This document shows positions 13,050 to 60,584 of a stretch of 64,000 nt of DNA, piece by piece. Every line of letters starts with the position of its first letter. Positions within the stretch are counted from its first letter, which is position 1. The position numbers and the translations under genes are program-made. The notes under the pieces are model-generated. The model made no database searches. It had not been told where the DNA came from and was given only the letters and a program-made list of their open reading frames with translations. This DNA is from a virus, in the IMG/VR virus record IMGVR_UViG_3300045988_130225, positions 35,703-99,702 of that record; one strand, 5' to 3'.

Positions 13050-13176
13050 TTTATTCCATTCCTTTCGTTTTATTCCATAATCTATGTACAAGGGTGTAAC
13101 GAAACGTGACACCCTTTCAAAAAGTTTACCCTACCAATTTATCATACAATCCATTCAAGCCAATGTCGCCCTATTT

Positions 13177-24234: not shown

Positions 24235-25705
24235 GAAAACTTATAAAAAGTTATAAACTTTTATGTTTCATTCCTACTTCAACGAGTATGCTTTCATAAT
24301 TATTTCTAATATACTACTCACAAGTTCTTGCACTCTCCATAGGCGTAAATTCCGAACTAACGTATTCGTACATATTTATATCAACCTGAAATGCTATGAT
24401 ACAGATTGATTTAAAACATTTTCTCCATATCTTTTAAGATTTAAAGATGCTTGATAATCTCTGTCAATCATATTACCGCAATCACATTTATAAACACGGT
24501 CTGATAATTTTAAATCTTTTTTAATTTTGCCACAACAACTGCATAATTTAGAACTAGGAAAAAACCTATCAGCAACTATTACAGTAATATTATTCCATTT
24601 ACTTTTATATTTAATTTGCCGTCTAAACTCATAAAATCCTTGCTGTTGTATAGCTTTGGATAAATGTTTATTTTTCATCATACCTTTTACATTCAAATCT
24701 TCAATACAAATAAAACTTGGTTCTCGCTTTATAATTTCAGAAGTTATTTGATGTAAATAATTCTTGCGAATATTTGTTAGTTTATGATTTACTTTTAAAA
24801 GTTTCTTTTCGCTTTTTACAATGTTACTTGTTTTACAATAACTATCTCCTTTCTTGTTTTTTAAATATTCCCTAGAAACAGAACGCTGTAACCTACGTTT
24901 TTTCTTCTCTAACTGTTTTATCTTTTGTGATTTATTTATATTTTGATATTTATAATTATTAGAACAAATAGCTAAATCTTTAATTCCTAAATCAATACCA
25001 ATTCCTTCTTTATTAGGAATATTTACACTATCTGGATATTCTACACCAACTGTAATCCACCAATTTAATCCGTCAAATTTAATTCTAGGATTATAATATT
25101 TACAATCTGTCGGTATACGATTACGTTCAGCAAGTCGTATCCAGTTTAATTTCTGCTTATTTTTCTTTTTAGATTTTGTAAATCCTTCAACTTTTACATG
25201 AGTTTCAGAAAATTGAATTTTTACACTATCTTGGTAAAAGGAGGGTGTAGATTTTTTTCTGTTTTTAAATTTAGGAAAGTTTGTCAAGCCTTTAAAAAAT
25301 TTCTTATAAGCATCACAAGCATCTTTAATAGCTTGTTTTGTGACATTGTTAGAAATATCATTTAACCAGACATATTTCTGTGTATGTTTCATTTTTGTAA
25401 ATTCTTTTCGCAAATCCGTATCAGATAGAAATTTACCACCATTTTTATAATTTTCTTGTTCTCTTGCTAATGCCCAGTTATAAGCAAATCGAGCAGTGTA
25501 AGCATACTGAAGCAATTTTGTCTTTTGTTTATTGTTTGGAATTAACATTACTCGAATCGTTTTTAACACATTGTTCGCCACCTTCATCTATAAGTTCTTT
25601 TACAAATTTCTTTGCTTTGTCTTATAAAACTTATAAAAATCAACATTCAATTATAACTTTTTATAAGTTTATAATCATTGTTATTCACCTCTTTCAACCA
25701 GTGTT
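24235..25705 (-). mobile_element. TnpB-only IS200/IS605-superfamily element (element 1)
   Basis: tnpB flanked by a perfect 20 bp inverted repeat (24237-24256 versus the reverse complement of 25651-25670) and by 13 nt direct repeats ACTCAC(C/T)GTTACT (24222-24234, 25706-25718). Confidence 0.6.
24394..25587 (-). CDS. tnpB: TnpB RNA-guided nuclease
   Basis: 397 aa; RuvC motifs GIDLGIKDLA / ICIEDLNVKGM / DRDYQASLNL and a CxxC..CxC zinc ribbon. Confidence 0.9.
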   Translation of the reverse strand: MKVANNVLKTIRVMLIPNNKQKTKLLQYAYTARFAYNWALAREQENYKNGGKFLSDTDLRKEFTKMKHTQKYVWLNDISNNVTKQAIKDACDAYKKFFKGLTNFPKFKNRKKSTPSFYQDSVKIQFSETHVKVEGFTKSKKKNKQKLNWIRLAERNRIPTDCKYYNPRIKFDGLNWWITVGVEYPDSVNIPNKEGIGIDLGIKDLAICSNNYKYQNINKSQKIKQLEKKKRRLQRSVSREYLKNKKGDSYCKTSNIVKSEKKLLKVNHKLTNIRKNYLHQITSEIIKREPSFICIEDLNVKGMMKNKHLSKAIQQQGFYEFRRQIKYKSKWNNITVIVADRFFPSSKLCSCCGKIKKDLKLSDRVYKCDCGNMIDRDYQASLNLKRYGENVLNQSVS

Positions 25706-27412: not shown

Positions 27413-29293
27413 TTAGAACACAAGTTGGTCTAACTCATCTAAATTGGTATCTCTTTGTTCATCTACAGCATACTTATCACCTATTAAGGTTGCAATATGG
27501 TTTCCGTAACTCAAAGCTACAATTTTATCCTTTGTCGCACTATTTCTGTTAGGTTCTGATAATTTCAAAATACCGTTATTCCATGTTTGAGTTAAACTAA
27601 TAGCTTCTGACATCATTAATGCAGTTTGAACATATGGCAACTTAATATTAACTTTTTCCTCAGAACTCATAGTAAGATAATTTACATCTTCTTCAAGTTC
27701 TGTTTCAATCGTTAATTCATCTACCAAAAATTCAATCATTTCATTATCTAGGGCTTTCTTTAAATCAAGCCACATTAAACTATTTCGTTCACTTGTACCA
27801 ACAATAGGTATGATACATGGTATAGCTTCTGCATCAACCGTTTTGCCTTTAAGTTCTTGAATTTTAGCGTCTGGAACTATCTGTAAAGCAGATTCATAAC
27901 AAACTGTAAATCCATGTGGATTCCAATTACTTCGTGATGGGTGTTCAAAAGGTTTAGATAACTCTGTATAATAAAGAGTACCACCGCTTCTTTCGTCCAT
28001 TACGATATAATCTGCTTGGTAATCCCAAAAGAACTCTCTAATCTTTTGTTGAAATCCCTCACTATCACTAGCAGGGTGCGTTCCAATATATTCTACTTTT
28101 CGTCTTGTCTTACCATCTTTCATAATGACAGACATACAACCAATAACACTATTATCGTTATCGTTTGTATTGCTGTTTACAAAAGCATAATCAATGAAAA
28201 GTAAACGTTTTTCAAATTCACCTTTAGGTCTGTTACCTAAATCAGTTGACATAAATATATCCATAGGCGTAGGTGGTTTATAGGCTTTTTTTATCACTTG
28301 ATTCTTTCTGAAATCTTCAAGTAAGAAGAAAGCACCCTCTGTTTCACCATACATTTCATTCAAATCTTCTGTTACAAAGTCAATATCTGAATCAAATTCT
28401 TTATCATGCCAGTAATCAGCCCATGTTTTAAGGTTAAATAAAATTGCAAGAAAAATATTAGAAGCAAAGAAATTATATGTATGGTCTTTTCGTATCATAC
28501 TTTGTTGAACAACAAGTTTAAATTCTTGCCAGAAACTTTCACTTCTAAATCTTGCAGATGTAATACTTATAGTTTTACATTGCTCAACCCAACGTGGCAA
28601 TGTTTTTCCATTACTATCTTTATATTCGTCCAACAACGAAAATTTAGATTGTCTTGGGTGAGCCATTTTAGAGAATACAGAATCTATTAAACTTTTCTTC
28701 AAAAGTCTACGTTCTTCATATATAAGCATAGTTGCCCTAGAACCTCTACTGCTGTTCAGACAAGGTAAAACCGTTATCATACTGCCATTTATTTTGCTCA
28801 AATCTACTTCTACACAATCATTATTATACCTAAAAACTATATCGCCATTCTCATAATAATATTGTAAAACTGGTGAAAGTTTCTTGCAAAGTTCATCTTC
28901 TATTTTCTTTTTTACTAGCTTTGTAGCCTGTGGAATAGTAGAAGATGTAATAACAACTTCTGCAAACGGGTATAAACATGAGTGTATGACAGCGAGAAGT
29001 CCTGCAATCATTGACTTAGAAGCACCTCTCGAACAAATCGCATACCAATATTGGCTAATTCCTGCTAAATAAACCATAACATGCTGAAACGGATATAATT
29101 TAATCTTTAATCTTCTTTCAGCATATATATTCCAATTACGTCTATAAAATGTTGTCCATTCCTTAATATTTTTCTTTCTTTGTTCCCACGGTAATCTTCT
29201 GTCAGTCTTTTTCTTTTCTTCTTGTTTTTTCTTTCTTTTTTCCACAAGACTAATAATATCTATATCTTTGTTTTCCTCTAACATAGACATCAC
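27413..29293 (-). CDS. terL: terminase large subunit
   Basis: 626 aa; Walker A-like CSRGASKS near the N-terminus, C-terminal nuclease-like acidic motifs. Confidence 0.8.
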   Translation of the reverse strand: MMSMLEENKDIDIISLVEKRKKKQEEKKKTDRRLPWEQRKKNIKEWTTFYRRNWNIYAERRLKIKLYPFQHVMVYLAGISQYWYAICSRGASKSMIAGLLAVIHSCLYPFAEVVITSSTIPQATKLVKKKIEDELCKKLSPVLQYYYENGDIVFRYNNDCVEVDLSKINGSMITVLPCLNSSRGSRATMLIYEERRLLKKSLIDSVFSKMAHPRQSKFSLLDEYKDSNGKTLPRWVEQCKTISITSARFRSESFWQEFKLVVQQSMIRKDHTYNFFASNIFLAILFNLKTWADYWHDKEFDSDIDFVTEDLNEMYGETEGAFFLLEDFRKNQVIKKAYKPPTPMDIFMSTDLGNRPKGEFEKRLLFIDYAFVNSNTNDNDNSVIGCMSVIMKDGKTRRKVEYIGTHPASDSEGFQQKIREFFWDYQADYIVMDERSGGTLYYTELSKPFEHPSRSNWNPHGFTVCYESALQIVPDAKIQELKGKTVDAEAIPCIIPIVGTSERNSLMWLDLKKALDNEMIEFLVDELTIETELEEDVNYLTMSSEEKVNIKLPYVQTALMMSEAISLTQTWNNGILKLSEPNRNSATKDKIVALSYGNHIATLIGDKYAVDEQRDTNLDELDQLVF

Positions 29294-29442: not shown

Positions 29443-30555
29443 TTAAACATTTAAAATTCTTAAACCCTCATTCAAAATATTAATAGAAGCATTATCATCT
29501 CTATTCAATTTTGAACCGCAGTTAGAACAAATCCAGTATCTAATCTCAACAGGCTTTTTACCACCATTAACACCACAACAATGACAAATTTGTGAAGAAG
29601 GAAAATATCTATTAATTACAGATAATATTTTTCCATACCAAATAGATTTATAAGTCAACATTCTACGAAATTCAGACCAAGAAACATCATTCACATGTTT
29701 ATTACGAACACTGGAATCTGTTTCCCTCATAGACTGTACATCTAAATCTTCAATACAAATAATATCATATTGTTTAACAATATTAGTAGTCAATTTCTGT
29801 AAAAAGTCTTTACGTTGATTAGATATATGTTTTTGTAAATTTGCGACTTTAATTCTTGCTTTATTCCAATTAGAACCACCGATTGCTTTTCTCGATAATT
29901 CTCTTTGTAACTTAGCAAGTTTCTTTTCTGACTTTTCATAAAATCTAGGATTTTTAATCTTAATACCGTCAGATAAGATTGCAAAATCTACAATCCCTAA
30001 ATCTATTCCAACATTTTTATTTGTTTTTGGATATTGTGGAAATTCTATATCAGTACAGCATAATGAACAATAGTAATGTCCGTTTGGTTCTTGTGATATA
30101 GTAGCGTTAAGTATTCTTCCTTGCGGAATTTGCTTATCACGAACTTTTACAAAACCTAATTTTGGAAGCCTGATATGCTTACTTTCAAATCTTATATTAT
30201 TAGTAGTACAACTTGTAGTATAAGATTGATGTCTATTTTTCTTAGATTTAAAATTAGGAAAACCAGTTTGCTTTTTAAAAAGTTTTTGATATGCATTATC
30301 TAAATTTTTCAAAGTTTTCTGTAAAGCATCTTTATCTGGTTCTTTAAGCCATTCATTTTCTTTCTTTAACTGAGTAAGCATTTTACTTGTGTCGTAATAG
30401 TTTAAAGTTTTCTTATTTTCTTTATACTCAGTTATTCTTTTGTCTAAGAAATAATTATAAACATATCTACAGCAACCAAAAGTTTTCTGTATTAATTCTT
30501 GCTGTTTCTTATTCGGATAAATTCTATACTTAAAAGCCTTTTCCAACAATATCAC
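29443..30555 (-). CDS. tnpB: TnpB RNA-guided nuclease
   Basis: 370 aa; VGIDLGIVDFA / IICIEDLDVQSM / NRDDNASINIL and zinc ribbon CHCCG..CSNCG. Confidence 0.9.
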   Translation of the reverse strand: MILLEKAFKYRIYPNKKQQELIQKTFGCCRYVYNYFLDKRITEYKENKKTLNYYDTSKMLTQLKKENEWLKEPDKDALQKTLKNLDNAYQKLFKKQTGFPNFKSKKNRHQSYTTSCTTNNIRFESKHIRLPKLGFVKVRDKQIPQGRILNATISQEPNGHYYCSLCCTDIEFPQYPKTNKNVGIDLGIVDFAILSDGIKIKNPRFYEKSEKKLAKLQRELSRKAIGGSNWNKARIKVANLQKHISNQRKDFLQKLTTNIVKQYDIICIEDLDVQSMRETDSSVRNKHVNDVSWSEFRRMLTYKSIWYGKILSVINRYFPSSQICHCCGVNGGKKPVEIRYWICSNCGSKLNRDDNASINILNEGLRILNV

Positions 30556-31998: not shown

Positions 31999-32517
31999 TT
32001 ATTTGCCTTTCTTTTTCTCTACGAACTCGACATAATCTGGTTCAAGCATTTCAGCTAATCTTTTTTGCTTTCTTACTCTTTTTTGCTTTTCTATCATTAC
32101 TTCTCTTTGAAATTCTGGCTTTACAGCTTCTTTTATTTTAGCCGCAGATTTATTTTTTACTTTTAATGACGGTTCAAGGTTGTTTAAATATCCTTTGAGA
32201 TATTCAGAGGTTTTAAATCTAACCATGTACGTCAATGGTATCATAACATTATTTTTCTGTTTCGTCTGAATATTATATACTCTCTTGATTGCACCACCGC
32301 AAGTGGAAATCTTAAAAGTACCAATATTAGGAATATTGAAATAACCGTTATTTTTTATTTCATCTGCCATAATTTCAATAAAAGTTTTCATACATAACTT
32401 AGCCATTTCAGTTGTGAAACTTGGTTTAGTTTTCTTAACTGAAATGGCTATCAGTTCTGCGAGTTCGTTAGGGCTTAAAGACTTAACAATGACACCATCT
32501 TTATTAGGTCTTGCCAT
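31999..32517 (-). CDS. HU/IHF-fold DNA-binding protein with C-terminal basic extension
   Basis: 172 aa; ..IGTFKISTCGGAIKRVYNIQT..MIPLTYMVRFKTSEYLK.. HU-like beta-arm pattern. Confidence 0.5.
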   Translation of the reverse strand: MARPNKDGVIVKSLSPNELAELIAISVKKTKPSFTTEMAKLCMKTFIEIMADEIKNNGYFNIPNIGTFKISTCGGAIKRVYNIQTKQKNNVMIPLTYMVRFKTSEYLKGYLNNLEPSLKVKNKSAAKIKEAVKPEFQREVMIEKQKRVRKQKRLAEMLEPDYVEFVEKKKGK

Positions 32518-32537: not shown

Positions 32538-32891
32538 TTACTCTACAAAAGGTGCGTCCTGTGTCTTTTCCTTAACGGTTTCTCTTAACTTCTTAGACAT
32601 CTTAAATACTGGTTTAGTATAATCTGGGGTTGCACTTAACTGTCCAACTTCGCCAGTAGCAGGATTGATAATACCAGTTCTTTCTGGTCTGCCCTTAATA
32701 GTGGTGAAATCAATCTTTCCAAAACCGTTCATATCAAACTTCTTACCAGAAGCAATGCAAGTAGCGGCAATCTCATAAAATGCAGTCAGAACAGCCTTTG
32801 TGTCCTTCTGAGTAGCCTGTGCCTTGTATGCTACCATCTTTACTAACTCTGCGGTGCTAACCTTAGATACCTTAATTGCTTTCTTTGCCAT
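32538..32891 (-). CDS. HU-like DNA-binding protein
   Basis: 117 aa; ..GFGKIDFTTIKGRPERTGINPATGE....KPVFKMSKKLRE.. canonical HU pattern. Confidence 0.75.
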   Translation of the reverse strand: MAKKAIKVSKVSTAELVKMVAYKAQATQKDTKAVLTAFYEIAATCIASGKKFDMNGFGKIDFTTIKGRPERTGIINPATGEVGQLSATPDYTKPVFKMSKKLRETVKEKTQDAPFVE

Positions 32892-33137
32892 AATAAATTA
32901 CCTCATTTCTTTCTTTTTATTCGTTTTATTCATTTTTATTTCTTAGGGGAATTGGTGAGTGCCTAAAAGGTCACTCCCATACCCCTTTGATTTTTTATTT
33001 TTGGACGTTCTCTATCCATTAATAGAAAACGATTTTGCTCTTTCAAAAAGTGATTTAATCTTCAATACTTTTTATACAAAATAATTTTATTTTTGAAAGT
33101 GCATATTTTGCACCCTTATTTCACCTTATTGAAAAAA

Positions 33138-33896
33138 TTAGACTGTTTTTGAACATTTTTTACAAACTGCAAATAAAGTGTTGTCAACCTTAATAAGTTT
33201 ACCGCATTTTGAACACATTGCATACCCCTCTTTGTAAGTCGCAATTAAAAGGTTTCCCAAATTTTCCATTTCACTGATTCTGAAAACTGGTTCCATTCCC
33301 TCATAATCTTCTAACATTTTTACTTTAATGTTCAAGTTATCGCAAGAGTTTGTAACCTCAACTAAACCTTTGTTTTTCAACTCACCAATCAGTTTCATGC
33401 GTTCAAAAACGGTACAAGCCACATTTGATAGTTCAAACCAATCACCAATGTCTTTTATGGTTTTAAGGTTCAACCAGCCGTTAGCCGCTTTATAATGAGC
33501 CATAACATATGCAGAAAACATCAACTTACGTTCTCGGTCTGTTTCGCCTTTGAATACTTGTGTCATATCCCATGCATAAACATCTATATACCGTATATGA
33601 CTTAAAGATTTAATAACACCATTTCTTAAATTATCATATACATTCATAATCATTTTACGCCATTTTTCATGCACATATTCTTTTTGATAAATTTTAGTCA
33701 TTGCGTTTCTTACCAAATCTTCTACATGATGTAACGCATAATCAAACTCTTTATCGGAATAATATTTAATCAGCCATAAGAGAAATTTAAAAAAACCTAT
33801 ATCTGGTTTAACAATTTCTTCTGTTTTATCAGAATAAATATTTATTAAAATATCTCTTACATACTGATTTTCATTAAGAATGATTTTGTTTTTCAT
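33138..33896 (-). CDS. hypothetical protein with C-terminal zinc ribbon
   Basis: 252 aa; CSKCG..CKKC at the C-terminus. Confidence 0.5.
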   Translation of the reverse strand: MKNKIILNENQYVRDILINIYSDKTEEIVKPDIGFFKFLLWLIKYYSDKEFDYALHHVEDLVRNAMTKIYQKEYVHEKWRKMIMNVYDNLRNGVIKSLSHIRYIDVYAWDMTQVFKGETDRERKLMFSAYVMAHYKAANGWLNLKTIKDIGDWFELSNVACTVFERMKLIGELKNKGLVEVTNSCDNLNIKVKMLEDYEGMEPVFRISEMENLGNLLIATYKEGYAMCSKCGKLIKVDNTLFAVCKKCSKTV

Positions 33897-33934
33897 ATCT
33901 TACACTCCTATTCTATTACATTTTAATTGTTTTG

Positions 33935-36430
33935 TCAACCATTTTCATGTAATTTCTTTAAATTTTCTATTATTAAATCACCGACAACAGCCCAACAAAA
34001 ATATTTATTCTTATTCTGTCCATAACATAAGTCAAGCATAATATTAACAAGTCTATCTTTGTTTGGACAAATTTCTTCTGCTCTTGCTCTAAATTCATGC
34101 TGTATGCTCATAACTCTTGTATTTGCTTCTTCCGTACTTAAATTTTTCTCAATCACAATTTTCTTAAACTGTTTAATACGTTTAATGTATTCTTTTTCAA
34201 GATTTTCAATATCTTCTCTTGTTTTAGGTGAACTTCTTTGAATAGGAGATTTAAGAAATTCATAATTAAAACCCTTGGATTTAAGTTCTACCACTCTGCC
34301 ATCAAATTCACTTTCCACATATCGGCAAATTCGGTTCATAGTAGAACCAGAAATGTTTACTGGCATTTTTATATCGTACCATTCTAAAAACTTTTGCTGT
34401 TCTTCTGTAAGATTTTTCTTTTCTTTTAATTCATTTACTTTACAACCATAAAGCATAACACATTTAAGGTCACAATTTTTTATATAACTATCATAATCTT
34501 TTTTTAAAGAAGAATAATTATAAATAAAATAATAAGGCTTTTTATCTGTTACGATTGCTTTATCTAAAGGTGTGGTACACAGCTTTGAAACGTACCAATA
34601 CTTAGGCATTTCCTTACAAATAACTCCCTTCAGTTTGTCCAGAGTTGACTGTTGATATAACTGTCCACACAAAATACGTTTTGATAATTCTTTATATTCA
34701 TTTGTATTTTCATTAAATAAAGCTAATTTATCTATTTGTGCCGATACTCTATTAGTGATTGTTCCAACTTCTGAGCCTAAGCCCATACGGTTACTTTTTC
34801 TAATATCGTTTCTTTTAACAATTCTTTTCTCTCCTTTACGTTGTACACAATCAATAGCATTTGTATATTTATAAGCACTTAAAAGTACGTTATTATTAGT
34901 AGAATATATAGAATCACTATCAAAATCGCTCCCGTTCAATGCCATACATATAGTGTCCCAATCATTTAGCACCATCATTGTATTAGAATATTTATACCAT
35001 TCTTGGCATTTTTTATCGTTATTTACTTTCATTTTCCTAATATTATTATGTGAAGTCATAGGAGAACGAAAACAAACTACCTCATTCACACCTTTATCTA
35101 TCCAATATTGTGAATATATTTCGTTAGCTTTAAGTAAACCAGTAACCTCTAATCCATATATACTCTGCATTAAAGCATAAGAATCACCCATAACTATCTG
35201 ATAATTCCCTTCAACTTTCAGTTTACCTATCTTAGCTTGATTAATCTTTTTCTTAATCATTTTATTGATTCTGTCAATCACATAAGGGTCATTCATCATT
35301 CTCTCATCTAAATATAAGGCTTGTGCATAATCTTTGGTTTTAGTTTTTTCACCAACACCCAAAAATTCTTTTGTTTTCTGGTAATCACCACCAAACGCCA
35401 TTTTCAGCCAATCAACAGTAGGTTTACATAATTCTACAATCTGTTCATCTGTCAATTCATAACTTTGCAAATACTGATAATTTGTTTCTCTTGTATCTTC
35501 CAACTTTTTAGGTGTTACTTTTGTAGCAGAAAACCTATAACCATTTTCATAATAACATTTGTGGTATTCTTCCCAACTAGAATAATTATCCCATAACTTA
35601 AGACTGGATTCAGTAATAATCATATCCACATCTCGAATATCTCTTTCAGTACCCCAAATATCTTTTACTTTATATCCCTTACCAACTTCCTCAGCAAATT
35701 TTATAATCTCAAAGACATTCAACATACCTTTCATATAAGCATTTCTTAAACAAATACCACTTGGCAAATAATCAAGACCTAATTTATCAGCAACTCTTTG
35801 CATATATTCTGGTGTACAAAGATTCATGCCGTCACTGCCGTTGTTTTCTAACTCTACACCAAATTTTTCCTCAACGATAGGTTCATCTGTTTCACTATCA
35901 TCAATCCTAACCACATCACCCTTAAATTTAGTGATACAATCTCGTACAACCAATACAGAGCGTGGTTCTGGTATCTCAACGGACGCTGAATAGGTCAGAG
36001 CAATATAAGCCTCTAATTTAGCCGGTATAGCCTTGTAATCTTTCTTCCTACCACAATCAGTCCTTTTAATTAACTCTGGTAAAATATCTTCTCTCACAAA
36101 CAATAAAGTATTATTTTTAAGACCACCAGTAGTTCCAACAACCCACAAAAACCTTTTACCATTTAAAATCACACCAGTTTTAGACGTAACTTTGTCATAG
36201 TCACTCATTGAGGAAATCTCCACAGCAAGCATTAAATCCGTCATATCTTGCTTGTATTGTTTGTTACCTATAATTGTAATTAAATCTATCAGTCGAAATG
36301 CTTGTGAATCAAATAAGTCAATCAATTCATCTAAACGAACCGCCAACTCTTTGGATAAAGTAATTTGCCAGTTGTTTATTCGGAAACGTTCAGATGAAAC
36401 TTTGAAAATCTTTCTACGTTTATTTTGCAT
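33935..36430 (-). CDS. YonO / RdRP-like single-subunit (two-barrel) RNA polymerase candidate
   Basis: 831 aa; VVCFRSPMTSHNNIRKMKV followed by NGSDFDSDS mirrors the R.P...gD and GxDxDGD motifs of cellular RdRPs and SPbeta YonO. Confidence 0.6.
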   Translation of the reverse strand: MQNKRRKIFKVSSERFRINNWQITLSKELAVRLDELIDLFDSQAFRLIDLITIIGNKQYKQDMTDLMLAVEISSMSDYDKVTSKTGVILNGKRFLWVVGTTGGLKNNTLLFVREDILPELIKRTDCGRKKDYKAIPAKLEAYIALTYSASVEIPEPRSVLVVRDCITKFKGDVVRIDDSETDEPIVEEKFGVELENNGSDGMNLCTPEYMQRVADKLGLDYLPSGICLRNAYMKGMLNVFEIIKFAEEVGKGYKVKDIWGTERDIRDVDMIITESSLKLWDNYSSWEEYHKCYYENGYRFSATKVTPKKLEDTRETNYQYLQSYELTDEQIVELCKPTVDWLKMAFGGDYQKTKEFLGVGEKTKTKDYAQALYLDERMMNDPYVIDRINKMIKKKINQAKIGKLKVEGNYQIVMGDSYALMQSIYGLEVTGLLKANEIYSQYWIDKGVNEVVCFRSPMTSHNNIRKMKVNNDKKCQEWYKYSNTMMVLNDWDTICMALNGSDFDSDSIYSTNNNVLLSAYKYTNAIDCVQRKGEKRIVKRNDIRKSNRMGLGSEVGTITNRVSAQIDKLALFNENTNEYKELSKRILCGQLYQQSTLDKLKGVICKEMPKYWYVSKLCTTPLDKAIVTDKKPYYFIYNYSSLKKDYDSYIKNCDLKCVMLYGCKVNELKEKKNLTEEQQKFLEWYDIKMPVNISGSTMNRICRYVESEFDGRVVELKSKGFNYEFLKSPIQRSSPKTREDIENLEKEYIKRIKQFKKIVIEKNLSTEEANTRVMSIQHEFRARAEEICPNKDRLVNIMLDLCYGQNKNKYFCWAVVGDLIIENLKKLHENG

Positions 36431-36449
36431 TTGTTGAACTCCTTTATAA

Positions 36450-37376
36450 TTAGTGTTTATAAATATAATCTAAATTAGAAATATCATTAGGATAATCATT
36501 ATTTTTAGCGTGTTCAATCATTTTATCACATTTAATATTCCTACGCTCTAACATACCTACAACTACAGAAGCCACAAAAGGTAATTCGTTTTTATCAATA
36601 TAAGTTGTAATATCACCATGCCCACGTTCTTCAATTCTAGCAAGTAAATCTATACCTTGACGATATAACAATTCTTTTTCAAACAATTCCCAAGTATATT
36701 CATATTTTTCATTCCAATTTGTAGGGTCTACATTTACACTATAACATTCTTCATCAGTAATTGCATTTTTTAGTCTTTCTATCAGAACAAGTAAAAATCT
36801 ATAAGTACACCATTCGTAACTTTTTAAATTAAGCAATCTTATAATAGTGTAACATTTTTCTATTTCTGTATTAGATTTTTCTAAATCTTTTTCTAATTTT
36901 TTTATTTGATTTTCTTTGTCAATATTTTCTATCTCTTTTTCTTTTAATAATTCATCTTTTTTAATTGGTGATACATCGCCGTTCTCACTACAAATATCAA
37001 GAAAAACTATTCTTTTTTTATTACATAAATCAGTAATACATCTTGCAACTTTTTCATATTTTTCTGTATCATTACTTACATTATAAATAAGACTATCATA
37101 ACTTACAATATTACAATAATTTTCACCTTTTATCTGTTGCATTGTCATAAGGTCAATAGATGTTTTAGATTTAACATAAGGTGCAATAATATTTATCCAA
37201 CAATCTTTTCTCATTTTTTTTCTTATGTCACCATTACTCTCTTTATATCCCATATAAACATTTTCGCAATATCTTCTTACCAAAGCATTGATTCTTTTAT
37301 TTCGTGCTTGTCTTGTTGCTTCTTTTATAGTTTTTACTTCAGAATTTTTAGTCTTAACATTTTTCCCAAATCCCAT
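36450..37376 (-). CDS. hypothetical early protein
   Basis: ORF 36450..37439; ATG at 37376 after an AAGGAGGA RBS. Confidence 0.5.
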   Translation of the reverse strand: MGFGKNVKTKNSEVKTIKEATRQARNKRINALVRRYCENVYMGYKESNGDIRKKMRKDCWINIIAPYVKSKTSIDLMTMQQIKGENYCNIVSYDSLIYNVSNDTEKYEKVARCITDLCNKKRIVFLDICSENGDVSPIKKDELLKEKEIENIDKENQIKKLEKDLEKSNTEIEKCYTIIRLLNLKSYEWCTYRFLLVLIERLKNAITDEECYSVNVDPTNWNEKYEYTWELFEKELLYRQGIDLLARIEERGHGDITTYIDKNELPFVASVVVGMLERRNIKCDKMIEHAKNNDYPNDISNLDYIYKH

Positions 37377-37429: not shown

Positions 37430-37458
37430 TATATATCATTTTTTATTATAAAAGTCAA
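37430..37458 (-). promoter_or_regulatory. sigma70-type promoter of the minus-strand early operon
   Basis: TTGACT (reverse complement of 37453-37458), 17 nt spacer, TATATA (37430-37435). Confidence 0.5.
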
Positions 37459-37505
37459 TAGTATTTATTTAACTTTTATTAATAATATTTTAATGTATAA
37501 TATAC

Positions 37506-37536
<31 letters not shown>

Positions 37537-37567
37537 GTCTATTATAAAGTAAAGAATTAGCAATCTT

Positions 37568-37800
37568 TGATGCCGTAATTAACAACACACGCTATGGCTA
37601 TAATTTGAAAAAAGGCTACCCTCAAGGGTAGACTTTTGAAAATTTGTGCCATGTGTTGTTGATTACGGTATCAAACAAGCGGGGAAGAATGTAGAAATAA
37701 CATGGTGCGAAACCCTTGGGTTGAGCATGCTACCATGTTATTTATATATTCTGGGGTGCAACGCCCAGAGACGGGGTGTGGGTGTCCTCAACCCCACCAT
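37568..37800. other. GC-rich nested-helix element in the divergent control region (strand unknown)
   Basis: 21-22 nt arms 37568-37589 / 37652-37673 (19/21 complementary) enclose a terminator-like hairpin; then a 12 bp helix AAATAACATGGT/ACCATGTTATTT, CTGGG/CCCAG and GGGGT/ACCCC stems. Confidence 0.4.
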
Positions 37801-37860
37801 AATAATATTCATTACTAATTTTATATTTATATTAATATTATATAATATATATTATACCCC

Positions 37861-37889
37861 TTGACATATTCTATATTATATGATATAAT
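37861..37889 (+). promoter_or_regulatory. consensus sigma70 promoter of the plus-strand arm
   Basis: TTGACA, 17 nt spacer, TATAAT. Confidence 0.6.
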
Positions 37890-38073
37890 CGGAGTATGAA
37901 GTTGATTAATAGTAATAGAAAGTATAAGAGTTTTTGAATTTTTGTACTATCAAATGTATCTAATAAGGTGTTCTCTATATCTGATACATTTACTAGTACA
38001 AAAAATTAAAAACTATATAATTTTTATTGAGTTTGCTTACATTTTAAAAAATACCAAAAAAGGAGAAATGATT

Positions 38074-39087
38074 ATGGAATTAGAATTTAACAAACCCTAT
38101 AAATACAAAGATTTATGTAATTTTTTTAATTTAGAGCCAAAAACAGGAACAACTAAAATTTACCAAATTAAAAGATTACAAAAAGAATACGAAATTGAAA
38201 AATTAGGAACAAACTATGTTTTTATTAAAAAATATACAAAAGAAGAAATAGAATTAGCTGAACAAACAGAAAAATTAAAAGGTGTTTATCAATCTTATGT
38301 AGAATCTATTCTTACTGAATTAATCGCAAGACAGAATAACGGTATTCTTAGAATGTCTACTACAGAATTATTAAGAGAAGTAGGTTTTATAAATGAAGAT
38401 TTTAGCTACTGTAAATATAATAGTTACTTTTCTTCTTTAATTCTTAAAACAGATGAAATAGATTTACATGAATATACAGAAATTGTATATAAACAGTTAT
38501 CTCATTTATTAAGAACCATTATCCAAAATTTACATGATAAGCATTATCTTATTAGTAGACAATGTTTTAGATTATTAAAAGTTGTCAATACTAGAATGAA
38601 TGGAACTAAAATTCAATCACAATATGAGGTTCCTATTGAAACAAAAGAAGAACAAGATATTTTAAAGATTTATCTTCGTACGGCACGTTCTTTAGGGTAT
38701 AATGACGTTAAAGAATTATATGTTAAATTTAAAGATGTAGAAAAATTTAAAGATTTAGTAGGTAAAGAAATTAATAAAATTTATCCAGAGTATAATGCTG
38801 TATGCAAAGTATATAGTTTAAGTAGCGATAGAATGACAGCTTTAGATAATAGTACAAAGATTAAGAATGAACTTACTCAAAAGATTAGAAAAAAGATTGA
38901 GGGTTCAAAAGCAACTATCGGCATGGAAGATTTAGCATTATATGTTGAAGCTACAATAGACCCAAAAAGAATCTATCAGATTAAAGAGAAATTTTCTAAA
39001 TATGGTCATTTACTTAGAGAAAACCCAGAATTATTAAGACAGACTTTATTTAAAGAAAATGAAGATATTATGTTTTTCCATAATTAA
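38074..39087 (+). CDS. hypothetical early protein, paralog A
   Basis: ORF 37942..39087; ATG at 38074 lies 7 nt after AGGAGA; collinear similarity to 39900..40835. Confidence 0.6.
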   Translation: MELEFNKPYKYKDLCNFFNLEPKTGTTKIYQIKRLQKEYEIEKLGTNYVFIKKYTKEEIELAEQTEKLKGVYQSYVESILTELIARQNNGILRMSTTELLREVGFINEDFSYCKYNSYFSSLILKTDEIDLHEYTEIVYKQLSHLLRTIIQNLHDKHYLISRQCFRLLKVVNTRMNGTKIQSQYEVPIETKEEQDILKIYLRTARSLGYNDVKELYVKFKDVEKFKDLVGKEINKIYPEYNAVCKVYSLSSDRMTALDNSTKIKNELTQKIRKKIEGSKATIGMEDLALYVEATIDPKRIYQIKEKFSKYGHLLRENPELLRQTLFKENEDIMFFHN

Positions 39088-39232: not shown

Positions 39233-39895
39233 ATGGAGAAACCGATAAAGAAAATTATTATTATCAACGGCTCTGGTGGAGTTGGTAAGGACGCTTTTGC
39301 TAAAAGAGTTATTGAAGAAACTCTTAAATTGTCGAAACGTATTGTTCCAGTTGAGAATGAAGATTATTGTGTAGACCCAGAAGTTTTTTACAAAAGAAAT
39401 AATATTTCTACTATTGATTGCGTAAAAAATATTGCCAAAATGTTTAACTGGAATGGTGAGAAATCTGAAAAAGACAGAAAAATGTTAAGTGACCTAAAAG
39501 ATTTAATGACGGTCTATAATGATTATCCTTTTAAATGTATTACAATACAAATTAGTAATTGGCTACATTGTGTTGGGTGTATGTATGACCATTCATTTCT
39601 TTTTGTACATTGTAGAGAGCCTAAAGAAATTGAAAGAATAAAAAATCAGTTTCCTAATGACACTTTTACTTTATTAGTACAGAATCCTAAAGTTGCAAAA
39701 GTAACTGGTAATCATGCTGATAGAGAAGTTGAAAATTACAATTATGATTTTACTGTAGTTAACGATTCTGACCTTAGAGCATTAAGAAAAGTTGCTATTG
39801 ACTTTTATAAGAAAATCTTTAACCAAGGTTTTACAAAGTATAAGTTTGTTGCTTCTGATTATGATTTCAACCCAGAGGAGAATGGGATATTTTAA
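39233..39895 (+). CDS. P-loop kinase (dNMP-kinase-like)
   Basis: 220 aa; N-terminal IIIINGSGGVGKD Walker A. Confidence 0.5.
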   Translation: MEKPIKKIIIINGSGGVGKDAFAKRVIEETLKLSKRIVPVENEDYCVDPEVFYKRNNISTIDCVKNIAKMFNWNGEKSEKDRKMLSDLKDLMTVYNDYPFKCITIQISNWLHCVGCMYDHSFLFVHCREPKEIERIKNQFPNDTFTLLVQNPKVAKVTGNHADREVENYNYDFTVVNDSDLRALRKVAIDFYKKIFNQGFTKYKFVASDYDFNPEENGIF

Positions 39896-39899
39896 AAAA

Positions 39900-40835
39900 A
39901 TGATAGAAATTGGTAGGACTTATCGTTATAAAGAACTTTGTGAAGCTATAGGAAAAAATAATGTTATAGGGTCTTATAAAACAACCTTACTTAAAAGTAT
40001 TTATAAGAATTATGAGGTAGTTCATAAAAACGGCTTTTATAAAATCATAAGAGAATATTCACAACAAGAAAAAGATGCAAAAGAAATTAAAGGAATGTAT
40101 CAAAAACTGCTTGAAGCTATATTAAGTAATTTTTTATCTCAACAAGACAATTATTCAGTCTGTACCTCAATGATGGAATTACTTTTAGCTTGTGGGATTA
40201 TTAATACAGATTTTAAATACTGTAGGTATAATATTGATTCTTCATCTAAAATACTTAAAAGTGACCCTTATGACTTAGAAGAATATATCACAAAATCTTA
40301 TAATCTTCTTAGCCGAATGTTTAAAGATATTCTTGACCAACTTGAAAATAAAGCTTTAATCAAATGTCGAAAAGGTTACAAGCTGTTCAAAGTTAATAAC
40401 ATGGGGTTACAAAGTGGTAGCAAGGTGATAACTCTTGGCTCAAAAGAGGAAACGATAATTATTAAGGCTGAGGAAGAAGGACTTAAGGAAATGGGTCTTA
40501 CTAAGCTATTTGAAGTATATAGAAATGAAATTAGTATTGAAACATTTAAAAAAATCACAAACAGAAAGATAAAAGAACAGTTTCCAGATTATGACGGTTA
40601 TTACAAAGTATATCATATCACTTTAAATCGTACAGGACTTTGGGAGAACAAGAATAATATCTATAAAGAACTTAATAAAAAAATTCAAACCAAGTTATTA
40701 AAAAATAAAGGTTTATCTGAAATAACGCAATTAAAGAAAATGGTAGACGCTACAATTAATTTGTCCAGACCATTTAAAATACAAGAAAATTTAAAGCTTA
40801 TGAAAAAGTTGGAAGGAGAAAATAACAATGAGTGA
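39900..40835 (+). CDS. hypothetical early protein, paralog B
   Basis: ORF 39792..40835; ATG at 39900 aligns with the paralog A start (MIEIGRTYRYKELC versus MELEFNKPYKYKDLC). Confidence 0.55.
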   Translation: MIEIGRTYRYKELCEAIGKNNVIGSYKTTLLKSIYKNYEVVHKNGFYKIIREYSQQEKDAKEIKGMYQKLLEAILSNFLSQQDNYSVCTSMMELLLACGIINTDFKYCRYNIDSSSKILKSDPYDLEEYITKSYNLLSRMFKDILDQLENKALIKCRKGYKLFKVNNMGLQSGSKVITLGSKEETIIIKAEEEGLKEMGLTKLFEVYRNEISIETFKKITNRKIKEQFPDYDGYYKVYHITLNRTGLWENKNNIYKELNKKIQTKLLKNKGLSEITQLKKMVDATINLSRPFKIQENLKLMKKLEGENNNE

Positions 40836-44017: not shown

Positions 44018-44089
44018 AGGGCATTAGCCAAGCGGAAAGGCAAAACACTTTGACTGTTTCATGCGTAGGTCCGAATCCTACATGCCCTG
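44018..44089 (+). tRNA. tRNA-Gln (UUG)
   Basis: Manual fold: 7 bp acceptor AGGGCAT/ATGCCCT, D-arm GCCAAGCGGAAAGGC, anticodon stem AAACA/TGTTT with loop CTTTGAC, T-arm GTAGG-TCCGAAT-CCTAC. Confidence 0.85.
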
Positions 44090-44973: not shown

Positions 44974-45047
44974 GGAACAATATTTCAACTGGTTAGAAAG
45001 TTCGGCTCATAACCGAAAAGTTATAGGTTCGAGTCCTATTTGTTCCA
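44974..45047 (+). tRNA. tRNA-Met (CAU; could be an Ile2-type)
   Basis: Manual fold: acceptor GGAACAA/TTGTTCC, D-arm TTTC..GAAA, anticodon stem TTCGG/CCGAA with loop CTCATAA, T-arm ATAGG-TTCGAGT-CCTAT. Confidence 0.85.
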
Positions 45048-60008: not shown

Positions 60009-60584
60009 GTGGAAACTACCCCCTCTATTGATAGAAAGAAACTAGCAGAAGAAAACCACAATCTTATCTATTGGTTTTGTTGGAAAAATCATTTAGATAT
60101 AGAAGAGTGGTATGATATAATTGCTATTGGATATATGAAAGGTATTAATTCTTATGACGAAACAAAAGGTGTTAAATTAAGCACTTACTTAATTAAAATA
60201 ATGAAAAATGAATATCTGCTAGTATTAAGAAATAAAAAATATGCTAAGTATATTCCAGACGAAGAGATTTTATCTTTGGATTTTGAATATAAATTTGATA
60301 AAGATAAAGAGAGTTATAATATTTTAGATTTTATTGTAAATGAAAATTCGTTTTTTGAAAATGATGTTTGCTTTAAGATTGATATTAAAAAAGTATTTAG
60401 TGAATTGAAAATTTCAAAACGAAATTATGAAATTTTCATAATGAGATTACAAGGTGATACATTAGAGAAAATAGCTTCTGAATTTGGAATAACAAGAGAA
60501 AGAGTTAGAATAATATGTAAAGATATAGGGAAAAAATTGAAATGTAAATTAGACGAAAATGGAGTTGATTATTTTGAAAACTAA
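60009..60584 (+). CDS. sigma-70 family (group 4-like) sigma factor
   Basis: 191 aa (GTG start); region-2-like N-terminus and region-4 HTH LQGDTLEKIASEFGITRERVRIICKD. Confidence 0.7.
   Translation: METTPSIDRKKLAEENHNLIYWFCWKNHLDIEEWYDIIAIGYMKGINSYDETKGVKLSTYLIKIMKNEYLLVLRNKKYAKYIPDEEILSLDFEYKFDKDKESYNILDFIVNENSFFENDVCFKIDIKKVFSELKISKRNYEIFIMRLQGDTLEKIASEFGITRERVRIICKDIGKKLKCKLDENGVDYFEN

What the first reader, a model, noticed from the sequence alone, without database searches (positions are those of the whole stretch)
33935..36430. Candidate YonO/RdRP-like single-subunit RNA polymerase in the early minus-strand operon
The 831 aa ORF carries FRSPMTSHNNIRKMKV followed about 35 residues later by NGSDFDSDS. 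The order and spacing resemble the R.P....GD and (S/G)GxDxDGD catalytic-loop motifs of eukaryotic RNAi RdRPs (QDE-1) and their phage relatives (SPbeta YonO, the crAss-like virion RNAP). An N-terminal GKRFLWVVGTTGGLKNNTLLFVRED resembles the RdRP 'y.fL.fS.SQlR....wF' segment.

The gene is expressed from a host-type promoter (37430-37458). Long late operons without obvious sigma70 promoters lie downstream of it. This fits a phage polymerase that transcribes late genes from unknown promoters.
Basis: partly seen in the sequence, partly recalled or inferred. Interest (0 to 1): 0.65.

Follow-up and report, generated by a model that had tools for sequence, protein, structure and literature searches.

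The report
YonO-type phage RNA polymerase gene
This 831-residue phage gene encodes a single-chain "two-barrel" RNA polymerase of the known YonO family, related to cellular RNA polymerases and RNAi polymerases; it is a correct but fairly ordinary identification, and the most useful new point is a conserved partner gene next to it.

Summary

**Family membership**
- BLASTP to SPbeta YonO gives E = 3e-24.
- A family profile reaches plant RDR2 (E = 7e-7) and QDE-1 (E = 3e-3) by sequence.
- A confident AlphaFold model (pLDDT 91) matches RDR2 and QDE-1 over its full length (Foldseek E 1e-17 to 1e-15, TM about 0.55).
- All eight residues invariant in two-barrel RNA polymerases are present: D200, R229, K234, R455, P457, D502, D504, D506. 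All eight are invariant in 41 relatives. With YonO and more distant relatives added (38 sequences), seven stay invariant and R229 is at least 90% conserved.
- The serine in DFDSD sits at a naturally variable position.

**Novelty.** The family is known. YonO is a proven DNA-dependent late-gene transcriptase. The closest isolate's homologue is labelled "RNA-dependent RNA polymerase" in GenBank. This is a new member of a known kind.

**What the tools added**
- The polymerase lacks YonO's C-terminal zinc ribbon. A conserved 252 aa gene immediately downstream supplies it.
- That gene follows the polymerase, and is itself followed by HU genes, in all 20 non-SPbeta genomes examined. It is fused to the polymerase in one lineage.
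- It is probably a polymerase cofactor.

**Caveat.** The phage also encodes a SigK-like sigma factor, so which genes this polymerase transcribes is inferred, not shown. The cited host promoter is no better than chance.

The parts
33935..36430 (-). Gene for the 831 aa YonO-family single-chain two-barrel RNA polymerase
   Evidence: ORF. BLASTP to YonO E = 3e-24. AlphaFold pLDDT 91.1. Foldseek RDR2/QDE-1 E 1e-17 to 1e-15. Family profile to RDR2 7e-7.
36439..36445 (-). Shine-Dalgarno AAAGGAG of the polymerase gene
   Evidence: Read directly from the sequence.
36086..36160 (-). Residues 91-115, N-terminal 'SQLR-like' segment conserved with YonO and cellular RdRPs
   Evidence: Aligns to YonO [23 protein letters not shown]. 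Through the family profile it aligns to maize RDR2 KKYEFLAFSASQLRGNSVWMF.
35726..35833 (-). Beta-like barrel active-site residues D200-G201, R229 and K234-G235 (equivalent to Qde1 D709, R738, K743)
   Evidence: Invariant in 41 sequences. D200 and K234 are invariant and R229 is at least 90% conserved in 38 sequences including YonO. The D-to-R (29) and R-to-K (5) spacings are identical to Qde1. Aligns to RDR2 SDGIGKIS...QIRYGGYKG.
35060..35068 (-). R455-S-P457, the beta-prime-like barrel R-x-P (equivalent to Qde1 R962/P964 and Rpb1 R446/P448)
   Evidence: Invariant in A1 and A2. Aligned to YonO RSP.
34913..34927 (-). D502-F-D504-S-D506, the catalytic metal-binding aspartate triad
   Evidence: The three Asp are invariant. 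Position 505 varies (G14, Y14, S7, M3, F3 of 41). Aligned to YonO DNDGD, whose 3D>3N mutant is inactive (PMC5467207). Relatives carry an intron after codon 504.
34634..34639 (-). D598-K599 in the long helix 577-601; invariant D598 and K601; second intron insertion site in relatives
   Evidence: Invariant columns. Insertions of 290-1112 nt after residue 598 in 11 related loci.
33138..33896 (-). 252 aa partner gene: helical N-terminal domain, probable winged helix, then a C-terminal C4 zinc ribbon; candidate polymerase cofactor
   Evidence: Follows the polymerase in all 20 non-SPbeta sources, scoring 66-385 bits. Matches the YonO C-terminus at 20.3 bits against background of at most 7.6 bits. 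Fused to the polymerase in P0337. Model pLDDT 89.2. Only weak winged-helix fold hits.
33153..33215 (-). Zinc ribbon of the partner (C228, C231, C245, C248), counterpart of YonO residues about 799-820
   Evidence: C231, C245 and C248 are invariant and C228 is at least 90% conserved. Aligned to YonO CCICGK...CQSCG.
32892..33137 (-). 246 nt gap between the partner and the first HU gene. Its length is conserved in relatives. It contains a weak terminator-like hairpin (33096-33116) and a stable stem-loop (32941-32990). Candidate boundary or promoter region for the late block.
   Evidence: The gap is about 220-250 nt in all related loci. Window stem-loop: dG -22.5, z -3.8. PMBT24-group stem-loops at the same relative place: z -4.3 and -3.8. 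No sigma70-like match of at least 9 of 12 on the sense strand. No conserved sequence motif could be derived.
32538..32891 (-). HU-family DNA-binding protein 1 (117 aa), part of the conserved polymerase-partner-HU module
   Evidence: Pfam Bac_DNA_binding 4.7e-15. An HU gene follows the module in SPbeta (yonN), BUCT082, c-st, L019 and L020.
31999..32517 (-). HU-family DNA-binding protein 2 (172 aa)
   Evidence: Pfam Bac_DNA_binding 7.9e-10.
36450..37376 (-). 308 aa ORF of unknown function immediately upstream in the same operon (true start probably 37376)
   Evidence: RBS AAGGAGG before the ATG at 37376. No Pfam, NCBIfam or PADLOC match. Present only in the close relatives.
37440..37941 (.). Divergent intergenic region with the best sigma70-like matches in the area. 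Probable site of host-polymerase promoters for the polymerase operon (minus strand) and the right arm (plus strand).
   Evidence: TTGACA-17-TATAAT, 12 of 12 with TG, on the plus strand at 37861-37889. TAGACA-16-TATAAT, 11 of 12, on the minus strand at 37541-37514. These are consensus matches only.
60009..60584 (+). Phage sigma-70-family (SigK-like/ECF-like) factor; rival or complementary route to middle and late transcription
   Evidence: Pfam Sigma70_r2 29.3 bits and r4 25.2 bits, both above cutoff. TIGR02937 65.6 bits against cutoff 42.9.

Best explanation
**What it is.** The gene encodes a catalytically competent single-chain two-barrel RNA polymerase of the YonO family.

**Shown here**
- It is homologous to YonO.
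- It has the full-length fold of QDE-1/RDR2-type polymerases.
- It keeps all eight active-site residues common to two-barrel polymerases. These are the Mg-binding triad D502/D504/D506, R455-x-P457 in the beta-prime-like barrel, and D200, R229 and K234 in the beta-like barrel.

**Inferred from the YonO precedent and the gene layout**
- Despite the database label 'RNA-dependent', it most likely copies the phage's double-stranded DNA.
- It is made early by the host polymerase, from the divergent promoter region at about 37.4-37.9 kb.
- It then transcribes the promoter-poor block of structural genes on the minus strand that lies downstream of it.

**Inferred from conserved linkage and gene fusion**
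- It works together with the adjacent 252 aa winged-helix/zinc-ribbon protein.
- That protein supplies in trans the zinc ribbon that YonO carries at its own C-terminus. It may provide DNA or promoter recognition.
- The two HU-like proteins encoded next may be architectural helpers.
For: **Homology**
- tblastn and BLASTP to SPbeta YonO: E = 1e-17 and 3e-24 over residues 22-563.
- A polymerase profile built without YonO matches YonO residues 86-602 and 709-794: 192 bits, 7e-61.
- 1,515 family clusters at E <= 1e-3.
- 21 of 38 family members hit Pfam RdRP PF05183.
- Family profile against PDB sequences: maize RDR2 7e-7, Arabidopsis RDR2 6e-6, QDE-1 3e-3.

**Structure**
- AlphaFold pLDDT 91.1, pTM 0.85.
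- Foldseek: RDR2 2.4e-17; QDE-1 about 1e-15 with TM 0.54-0.56 over about 950 columns; phage gp64 polymerase 8f72 1e-4; bacterial beta-prime about 1e-3.
- Viral library: phage 'RdRP' 1.4e-39; P23-45 gp64 2e-4.

**Active site**
- All eight residues are invariant in A1. Seven are invariant in A2, and R229 is at least 90% conserved.
- The spacing is the same as in Qde1.
- Mutating the YonO triad abolishes activity (PMC5467207).

**Function by precedent**
- YonO is a processive DNA-dependent polymerase needed for 37 late SPbeta genes.

**Layout**
- The order polymerase, partner, HU, HU, p296, terminase, portal and structural genes, all on the minus strand, is conserved in 15 relatives.
- The late block has 1 sense-strand intergenic sigma70-like match of at least 10 of 12. 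The right arm has 11.

**Partner**
- Conserved in all 20 non-SPbeta sources.
- Specific match to the YonO zinc ribbon.
- Natural fusion P0337, seen in at least three sequencing runs.
Against: - No biochemical or transcriptomic data exist for this phage. Template preference, timing and target genes are all inferred.
- The phage encodes its own SigK-like sigma factor. Host polymerase plus this factor could transcribe some or all late genes.
- No promoter motif for the phage polymerase could be derived. No repeated intergenic motif was found, and there is no conserved block in the 32892-33137 gap between phage groups.
- The low count of sigma70-like sites in the late block partly reflects its small amount of intergenic DNA: about 1.5 kb, against about 6 kb in the right arm.
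- The query itself does not reach any Pfam, NCBIfam or PDB sequence hit on its own.
- The partner's winged-helix assignment rests on non-significant fold hits (best E = 0.18). No interaction between the two proteins was modelled.
Confidence: 0.72

Rival explanations
1. The protein is a genuine YonO-type polymerase, but the structural late genes are transcribed by host core polymerase redirected by the phage's own SigK-like sigma factor. The YonO-type enzyme then serves a narrower or different task. It might transcribe one class of genes or a few transcripts, or make primers or non-coding RNAs.
For: - A sigma-70-family factor is encoded at 60009-60584 (Pfam r2 and r4 above cutoff; TIGR02937 65.6 bits).
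- The related phage PMBT24 also has one (PMC11035940).
- No promoter motif specific to the phage polymerase was found.
Against: - The only characterised family member, YonO, transcribes the late structural and lysis operon.
- The polymerase-partner-HU module sits directly at the head of the structural block in every relative.
- A phage sigma factor and a phage polymerase can serve successive temporal classes, so the two are not mutually exclusive.
Confidence: 0.2
2. It is a true RNA-dependent RNA polymerase, as GenBank and UniRef label its homologues. It would copy or amplify RNA, for example for regulation or to counter host defences, as its closest structural relatives QDE-1 and RDR2 do.
For: - The best structural matches are cellular RdRPs.
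- Homologues are named 'RNA dependent RNA polymerase'.
- Many relatives hit Pfam RdRP.
Against: - These names derive from the Pfam family name, not from experiments.
- YonO was shown to be DNA-dependent (PMC5467207).
- The host is a double-stranded DNA tailed phage with terminase, portal and tail genes.
- No RNA-silencing partners are present, and there is no PADLOC hit.
Confidence: 0.05
3. It is a virion-packaged polymerase that is injected with the DNA and transcribes early genes, like crAss-like gp66 or N4 vRNAP.
For: - The gene lies next to and is co-oriented with the packaging and structural genes.
- crAss phi14:2 gp66 appears among the fold hits.
Against: - The match to gp66 is marginal (E = 9e-3, TM 0.17).
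- The protein has 831 aa and lacks the very large extra domains of injected polymerases. This comparison rests on general knowledge.
- The right arm carries 11 sense-strand intergenic sigma70-like promoter matches, as expected if the host polymerase transcribes the early genes.
- YonO acts after prophage induction, not from the virion.
Confidence: 0.04
4. It is an inactive or degenerate relic, because DFDSD departs from the canonical DxDGD.
For: Serine replaces the glycine of NADFDGD/DYDGD/DNDGD.
Against: - The three aspartates and the other five active-site residues are all intact and conserved.
- Position 505 varies freely in the family: G, Y, S, M, F.
- Relatives read DFDSD, DTDGD, DFDGD and DFDYD.
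- The gene is full length with a good ribosome-binding site.
- Near-identical copies occur in many metagenomes.
Confidence: 0.02

Closest known systems
YonO of Bacillus subtilis prophage SPbeta (Forrest et al. 2017, PMC5467207)
   Same: - Significant collinear sequence homology over the whole polymerase body.
- Both barrels on a single chain.
- The same eight active-site residues.
- Phage-encoded.
- Followed by an HU-like gene (yonN) and then the late structural genes.
   Different: - Only 24% identity.
- The window protein ends where the YonO polymerase body ends, at about YonO residue 796. It lacks YonO's terminal zinc ribbon and basic tail.
- A similar ribbon sits at the end of a separate 252 aa downstream protein that YonO has no gene for.
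- The motif is DFDSD rather than DNDGD.
- The phage also has a sigma factor.
Polymerase homologues of Enterocloster phage PMBT24 (63% identity), Clostridium phage c-st CST179/CST178 (39%) and Bacillus phage BUCT082 (30%)
   Same: - Full-length homologues.
- The same polymerase-partner-HU gene order.
   Different: - They are annotated only as 'RNA-dependent RNA polymerase', 'hypothetical' or 'YonO-homolog N-ter/C-ter'.
- The PMBT24 paper does not discuss the polymerase.
- The c-st gene is split by a 320 nt insertion at the catalytic motif.
- The window copy has no insertions.
Cellular RNAi RNA-dependent RNA polymerases (Neurospora QDE-1, plant RDR2; Pfam RdRP PF05183)
   Same: - Best structural matches over the full length (TM about 0.55).
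- Shared motifs SDGxG, R....KG, (R/N)-x-P..H and DxDxD, with nearly the same spacing.
   Different: - 11-13% identity.
- The query does not reach the Pfam model on its own.
- The cellular enzymes are larger (about 1,000-1,100 aa).
- They act on RNA templates in silencing pathways. The phage family's one tested member is DNA-dependent.
Other phage two-barrel single-chain polymerases: Thermus phage P23-45 gp64 (PDB 8f72 is labelled 'Phage P32 gp64') and crAss-like phi14:2 gp66
   Same: - The same two-barrel catalytic core.
- Phage transcription enzymes.
   Different: - Much weaker similarity: 1e-4 and 2e-4 for gp64, 9e-3 for gp66.
- gp66 is a very large virion protein.

Membership tests
Two-barrel RNA polymerase superfamily (eight invariant residues; Ruprich-Robert & Thuriaux 2010, PMC2919709) | Aspartate triad DxDxD in the beta-prime-like barrel (Qde1 D1007/1009/1011) | tested here: met
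   D502, D504 and D506 are invariant in 41 and in 38 sequences. They align to YonO DNDGD and RDR2 DLDGD.
Two-barrel RNA polymerase superfamily (eight invariant residues; Ruprich-Robert & Thuriaux 2010, PMC2919709) | R-x-P about 45 residues before the triad (Qde1 R962/P964) | tested here: met
   R455 and P457 are invariant. R455 lies 47 residues before D502, against 45 in Qde1.
Two-barrel RNA polymerase superfamily (eight invariant residues; Ruprich-Robert & Thuriaux 2010, PMC2919709) | Aspartate plus two basic residues in the beta-like barrel (Qde1 D709, R738, K743) | tested here: met
   D200, R229 and K234 have spacings of 29 and 5, identical to Qde1. D200 and K234 are invariant; R229 is invariant in A1 and at least 90% conserved in A2.
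Two-barrel RNA polymerase superfamily (eight invariant residues; Ruprich-Robert & Thuriaux 2010, PMC2919709) | Fold with two double-psi beta-barrels forming the active site | tested here: met
   The high-confidence model matches QDE-1 and RDR2 over its full length, and no other fold is significant. Strand clusters lie at 159-239 and 405-511. Barrel topology was not inspected residue by residue.
YonO-like phage and bacterial polymerases | Significant sequence homology to YonO across the polymerase body | tested here: met
   BLASTP 3e-24. Profile hit 7e-61, covering YonO 86-602 and 709-794.
YonO-like phage and bacterial polymerases | DNA-dependent, processive RNA synthesis | not testable with these tools
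   Known only for YonO itself.
YonO-like phage and bacterial polymerases | Required for transcription of phage late genes | not testable with these tools
   Only layout evidence is available: the gene heads the structural block. A sigma factor is a competing route.
YonO-like phage and bacterial polymerases | C-terminal zinc ribbon on the polymerase chain, as in YonO (a feature of YonO, probably not defining for the family) | tested here: not met
   There is no CxxC...CxxC at the C-terminus of the query, and only 1 of 345 full-length relatives has one. The ribbon lies in the next gene.
Pfam RdRP (PF05183) / eukaryotic RNAi RdRPs | Scores above the Pfam gathering threshold | tested here: not met
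   No PF05183 hit for the query even at E <= 1. 21 of 38 relatives hit it at E < 0.01.
Pfam RdRP (PF05183) / eukaryotic RNAi RdRPs | RNA-templated synthesis in a silencing pathway | not testable with these tools
   The context is a tailed double-stranded DNA phage. No silencing components were seen.
crAss-like virion RNA polymerase (gp66) | Close structural similarity and a very large virion-protein architecture | tested here: not met
   Foldseek E = 9e-3, TM 0.17. The query is a free-standing 831 aa protein.

The most novel reading that the evidence does not exclude
The YonO-type polymerase here, and in most of its family, may be a two-component enzyme. The adjacent 252 aa winged-helix/zinc-ribbon protein would be its dedicated initiation or promoter-specificity subunit. 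That would be functionally comparable to a sigma factor or to TFE/TFB, but for a minimal two-barrel polymerase. YonO would be a derived form that kept only the zinc ribbon by fusion. The HU-like proteins that always follow would shape the promoter DNA. This would address how YonO-type polymerases find promoters, which Forrest et al. (2017) left explicitly open.
Probability: 0.3. Interest if true: 0.6.

Novelty: new member of a known kind. Interest (0 to 1): 0.3.

Why it matters
**Main value: correct annotation.**
- This large family has at least 1,515 clusters at 50% identity.
- It is mostly unnamed or mislabelled 'RNA-dependent RNA polymerase' in databases.
- The window protein escapes Pfam, NCBIfam and PDB sequence searches entirely.
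- It shows that an abundant group of gut Clostridia phages carries its own minimal two-barrel transcriptase.

**More interesting lead: the partner gene.**
- The polymerase is almost always followed by a conserved partner gene. That gene is occasionally fused to the polymerase, and its zinc ribbon is what YonO carries at its own end.
- This gives a concrete candidate for the missing initiation factor of these enzymes.

**Introns.** The recurrent introns at the catalytic DxD|xD motif and at D598 in relatives independently mark these sites as the most constrained parts of the gene.

Tried and rejected
**Searches with the query alone**
- Pfam, NCBIfam, PADLOC and PDB-sequence searches gave nothing significant. 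Only PHROGs of unknown function matched. Profiles and structure were needed.

**Promoter derivation**
- A search for a repeated intergenic motif in the late block gave only chance-like families.
- Aligning the partner-HU gap between the window group and the PMBT24 group showed no convincing conserved block in AT-rich sequence. No polymerase-specific promoter could be proposed.
- I did not map the SPbeta YonO start site onto SPBc2 coordinates.

**Partner protein**
- Its fold search gave no significant match (best E = 0.18). The winged-helix reading rests on topology and weak hits.
- The partner profile's alignment to YonO residues 739-796 was rejected as an over-extension. The polymerase profile claims YonO 709-794 with a better score. 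Only the zinc ribbon and basic tail are treated as partner-like.

**Insertions in relatives**
- Rfam at gathering threshold did not call the insertions in relatives' polymerase genes.
- Only sub-threshold group I intron hits were obtained. 'Group I intron' is therefore probable, not proven.
- Inteins were rejected because the reading frame changes across each insertion.

**Other**
- The sigma70-like site TTGACA-17-TAGAAT at 33938-33910 was rejected as the partner's promoter. Its -10 element abuts the ribosome-binding site.
- A literature search for recent YonO work was swamped by an author surname and found nothing newer on promoters or cofactors.
Full report
**Observation**

The ORF at 33935-36430 on the minus strand is real: ATG start, 831 aa. 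It has a good Shine-Dalgarno sequence.

R-x-P followed 25-45 residues later by D-x-D-x-D occurs in only 0.5% of shuffles of this protein. The real support is homology, described below.

**Direct database searches**

With the single sequence, searches fail.
- Pfam gives no match, even at E <= 1.
- NCBIfam and PADLOC give no match.
- PDB sequences give nothing meaningful.
- Only three PHROGs of unknown function match strongly.

**Homology**

tblastn against phage genomes finds full-length relatives:
- Enterocloster phage PMBT24 at 63% identity, annotated 'RNA-dependent RNA polymerase'.
- Clostridium phage c-st at 39%.
- Bacillus phage BUCT082 at 30%.
- SPbeta YonO and its close relatives at 24% (E about 1e-17).

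Pairwise BLASTP to YonO gives E = 3e-24 over residues 22-563. In that alignment FRSPMTSH lies on YonO LRSPHLF, DFDSD on DNDGD, SDG on TDG, and the N-terminal motif on [19 protein letters not shown].

A polymerase profile built without YonO matches YonO in two collinear pieces, 86-602 and 709-794. The whole body is therefore homologous.

The family is large: 1,515 clusters at 50% identity with E <= 1e-3. In a 38-sequence sample, 21 members hit Pfam RdRP directly. The sample's profile reaches maize RDR2 (7e-7), Arabidopsis RDR2 (6e-6) and QDE-1 (3e-3) by sequence, aligning all the motifs.

**Structure**

An AlphaFold model built from a 41-sequence alignment is confident: pLDDT 91.1, pTM 0.85.

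Foldseek against the PDB returns only RDR2 and QDE-1 as its top 21 hits. E-values run from 2.4e-17 to 1.7e-12, with TM up to 0.56 over about 950 columns. Below them come a phage gp64 polymerase (8f72, 1e-4) and bacterial beta-prime (about 1e-3 to 1e-2).

In the viral library the order is as follows:
- phage 'RdRP' proteins, 1.4e-39;
- P23-45 gp64, 2e-4;
- crAss phi14:2 gp66, 9e-3.

That condition is not met.

**Active site**

Ruprich-Robert and Thuriaux list eight residues invariant in all two-barrel polymerases. In Qde1 they are D709, R738, K743, R962, P964, D1007, D1009 and D1011.

The query has D200, R229, K234, R455, P457, D502, D504 and D506. The D-to-R (29) and R-to-K (5) spacings are identical to Qde1, and R-to-D is 47 against 45.
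- All eight are invariant in 41 sequences.
- Seven are invariant, and R229 is at least 90% conserved, in 38 sequences that include YonO and go down to 22% identity.

Position 505, the serine, varies freely in the family: G, Y, S, M, F. Close relatives read DFDSD, DTDGD, DFDGD or DFDYD. DFDSD is therefore not a sign of decay.

**What it most likely does**

YonO is the only characterised member (PMC5467207).
- It is a processive DNA-dependent RNA polymerase.
- Mutating its aspartate triad kills activity.
- It is required for 37 late structural and lysis genes of SPbeta.
- Its promoter and any cofactors are unknown.

The window belongs to a tailed double-stranded DNA phage. A divergent control region lies at about 37.4-37.9 kb.
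- To the right is an arm with many sigma70-like sites.
- To the left, all on the minus strand and conserved in 15 relatives, the order is: a 308 aa ORF, the polymerase, a 252 aa ORF, two HU genes, a 296 aa ORF, a TnpB insertion, terminase, portal and the structural genes.

By analogy and layout I infer two steps. The host polymerase makes the enzyme early. The enzyme then transcribes the structural block.

This inference is not tested.
- The late block has one sense-strand intergenic sigma70-like match of at least 10 of 12, and the right arm has eleven. But the late block also has about four times less intergenic DNA.

The phage encodes a sigma-70-family, SigK-like factor at 60009-60584. PMBT24 does too. 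Host polymerase with this factor could transcribe some or all late genes. It is the main rival for the polymerase's role, though not for its identity.

**The partner gene**

The 252 aa ORF immediately downstream (33138-33896) has its own ribosome-binding site. It ends in an invariant ENLGN motif and a C4 zinc ribbon.

Its family profile behaves as follows.
- It finds the gene directly after the polymerase in every non-SPbeta source examined. There are 20 such sources, including c-st CST177, BUCT082, a 191 kb metagenomic contig and a Paenibacillus polymyxa prophage. Scores are 66-385 bits.
- Among 2,816 ORFs, the next hit is YonO itself: 20.3 bits, E = 3.9e-5, at its C-terminal zinc ribbon and basic tail.
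- All other ORFs score at most 7.6 bits, even though the set includes several zinc-ribbon TnpBs.

The polymerase profile shows that the YonO body ends at about residue 796. YonO therefore equals the polymerase body plus a partner-like zinc ribbon. The window enzyme lacks the ribbon, and the next gene encodes it.

One lineage, P0337 (1,173 aa), has the whole partner fused after the polymerase. It was recovered identically from at least three sequencing runs.

Conserved adjacency together with fusion argues that the partner works with the polymerase.

The partner's model is confident (pLDDT 89.2). It has no significant structural neighbour. The weak hits are nearly all winged-helix DNA-binding proteins such as Fur, PerR, Zur and ORC, which fits the helix-helix-helix-hairpin topology at residues 120-191. 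A role in DNA or promoter recognition is a hypothesis, not a finding.

HU-family genes follow the module in all lineages, including yonN in SPbeta.

**Promoter search**

I could not derive a promoter for the phage polymerase.
- The 246 nt gap upstream of the first HU gene keeps its length in relatives.
- It has no sense-strand sigma70-like match of at least 9 of 12.
- It holds a stable stem-loop at 32941-32990 (z = -3.8). The PMBT24 group has a different-sequence stem-loop at the same relative position (z = -4.3 and -3.8).
- No conserved sequence block emerges, and no repeated intergenic motif was found.

**Verdict**

The finding is correct and well supported. It places the gene in a family described since 2003-2010 and characterised in 2017.

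It is a new member of a known kind, of modest interest.

The added value is threefold: a firm annotation, correction of the 'RNA-dependent' label, and the partner-gene lead.

Noticed in passing
Window 34918/34919 (after codon 504) and 34636/34637 (after codon 598); relatives L003-L006, L010-L016, L018: Many relatives' polymerase genes are interrupted at two fixed sites. One is inside the catalytic DFD|SD motif (320-428 nt). The other follows the invariant D598 (290-1112 nt). The reading frame shifts across each insertion. Both L010 insertions give sub-threshold group I intron hits. The 1.1 kb insertion in L005 carries an ORF that looks, by eye, like an HNH/AP2-type homing endonuclease. The window copy and L007 have no insertions. 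Many database 'proteins' end at residue 502 for this reason, and the 'split' YonO homologue of phage c-st is probably an intron-containing gene.
   Followed up: partly
Window 60009-60584 (+): Phage-encoded sigma-70-family factor, SigK-like (TIGR02937 65.6 bits; Pfam r2 and r4 above cutoff). The phage therefore has both its own polymerase and its own sigma factor.
   Followed up: partly
Window 24394-25587 (-), 29443-30555 (-), 45298-46401 (+); RNA at 24271-24343 (-): Three TnpB (IS605 OrfB / Cas12f-like) paralogues at 29-48% identity. The first is followed directly by a RAGATH-18 RNA (70.6 bits against gathering score 44.9). In phage c-st a RAGATH-18 copy also lies just 3' of a transposase gene (L018 10944-11004), so this RNA may be the element's guide or omega RNA. 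The TnpB at 29443-30555 is an insertion that PMBT24 and several close relatives lack at this site, between the 296 aa ORF and terminase.
   Followed up: partly
Window 37605-37800 (-): A GC-rich island in the AT-rich divergent intergenic region folds stably (z = -3.2). It ends in a terminator-like hairpin with a T-run at 37631-37616 on the minus strand. It may be a small RNA gene. No Rfam family matches at gathering threshold.
   Followed up: partly
Window 32941-32990 (-); L002 about 9353-9396; L008 about 13111-13147: A stable stem-loop ends about 50 nt before the first HU gene. It is present at the same relative position in two phage groups, with different sequences.
   Followed up: partly
L005, L008, L014-L016 (terminase large subunit); L016 9013-9343: The terminase large-subunit gene of several relatives is also split by insertions. 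One holds a bona fide group I intron (RF00028, 96 bits). The window's terminase (27413-29293) is uninterrupted.
   Followed up: no
Window 44018-44089 (+) and 44974-45047 (+): Two phage tRNA genes: tRNA-Gln(TTG) and tRNA-Met(CAT).
   Followed up: no
Window 37942-39087 (+) and 39792-40835 (+): Two paralogous proteins of unknown function (31% identity, E = 5e-43) are the first large genes of the right arm. Neither has a Pfam match.
   Followed up: no
Window 47220-48455, 55404-56627, 61687-62490, 62749-63210 (all +): A C5 cytosine DNA methylase, a protein with a GmrSD N-terminal domain, a tyrosine recombinase and a cell-wall hydrolase lie in the right arm.
   Followed up: no
Window 33910-33938 (-): A near-consensus sigma70-like site, TTGACA-17-TAGAAT (11 of 12), straddles the end of the polymerase gene. 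Its -10 element abuts the partner's ribosome-binding site, so it is probably not a functional promoter.
   Followed up: partly
P0337; L021 4001-7522: A 1,173 aa natural fusion of the polymerase and the full partner protein lies in an SPbeta-like context (YonV_C and GIY-YIG genes upstream). The identical sequence was found on 5 contigs from at least 3 sequencing runs.
   Followed up: partly
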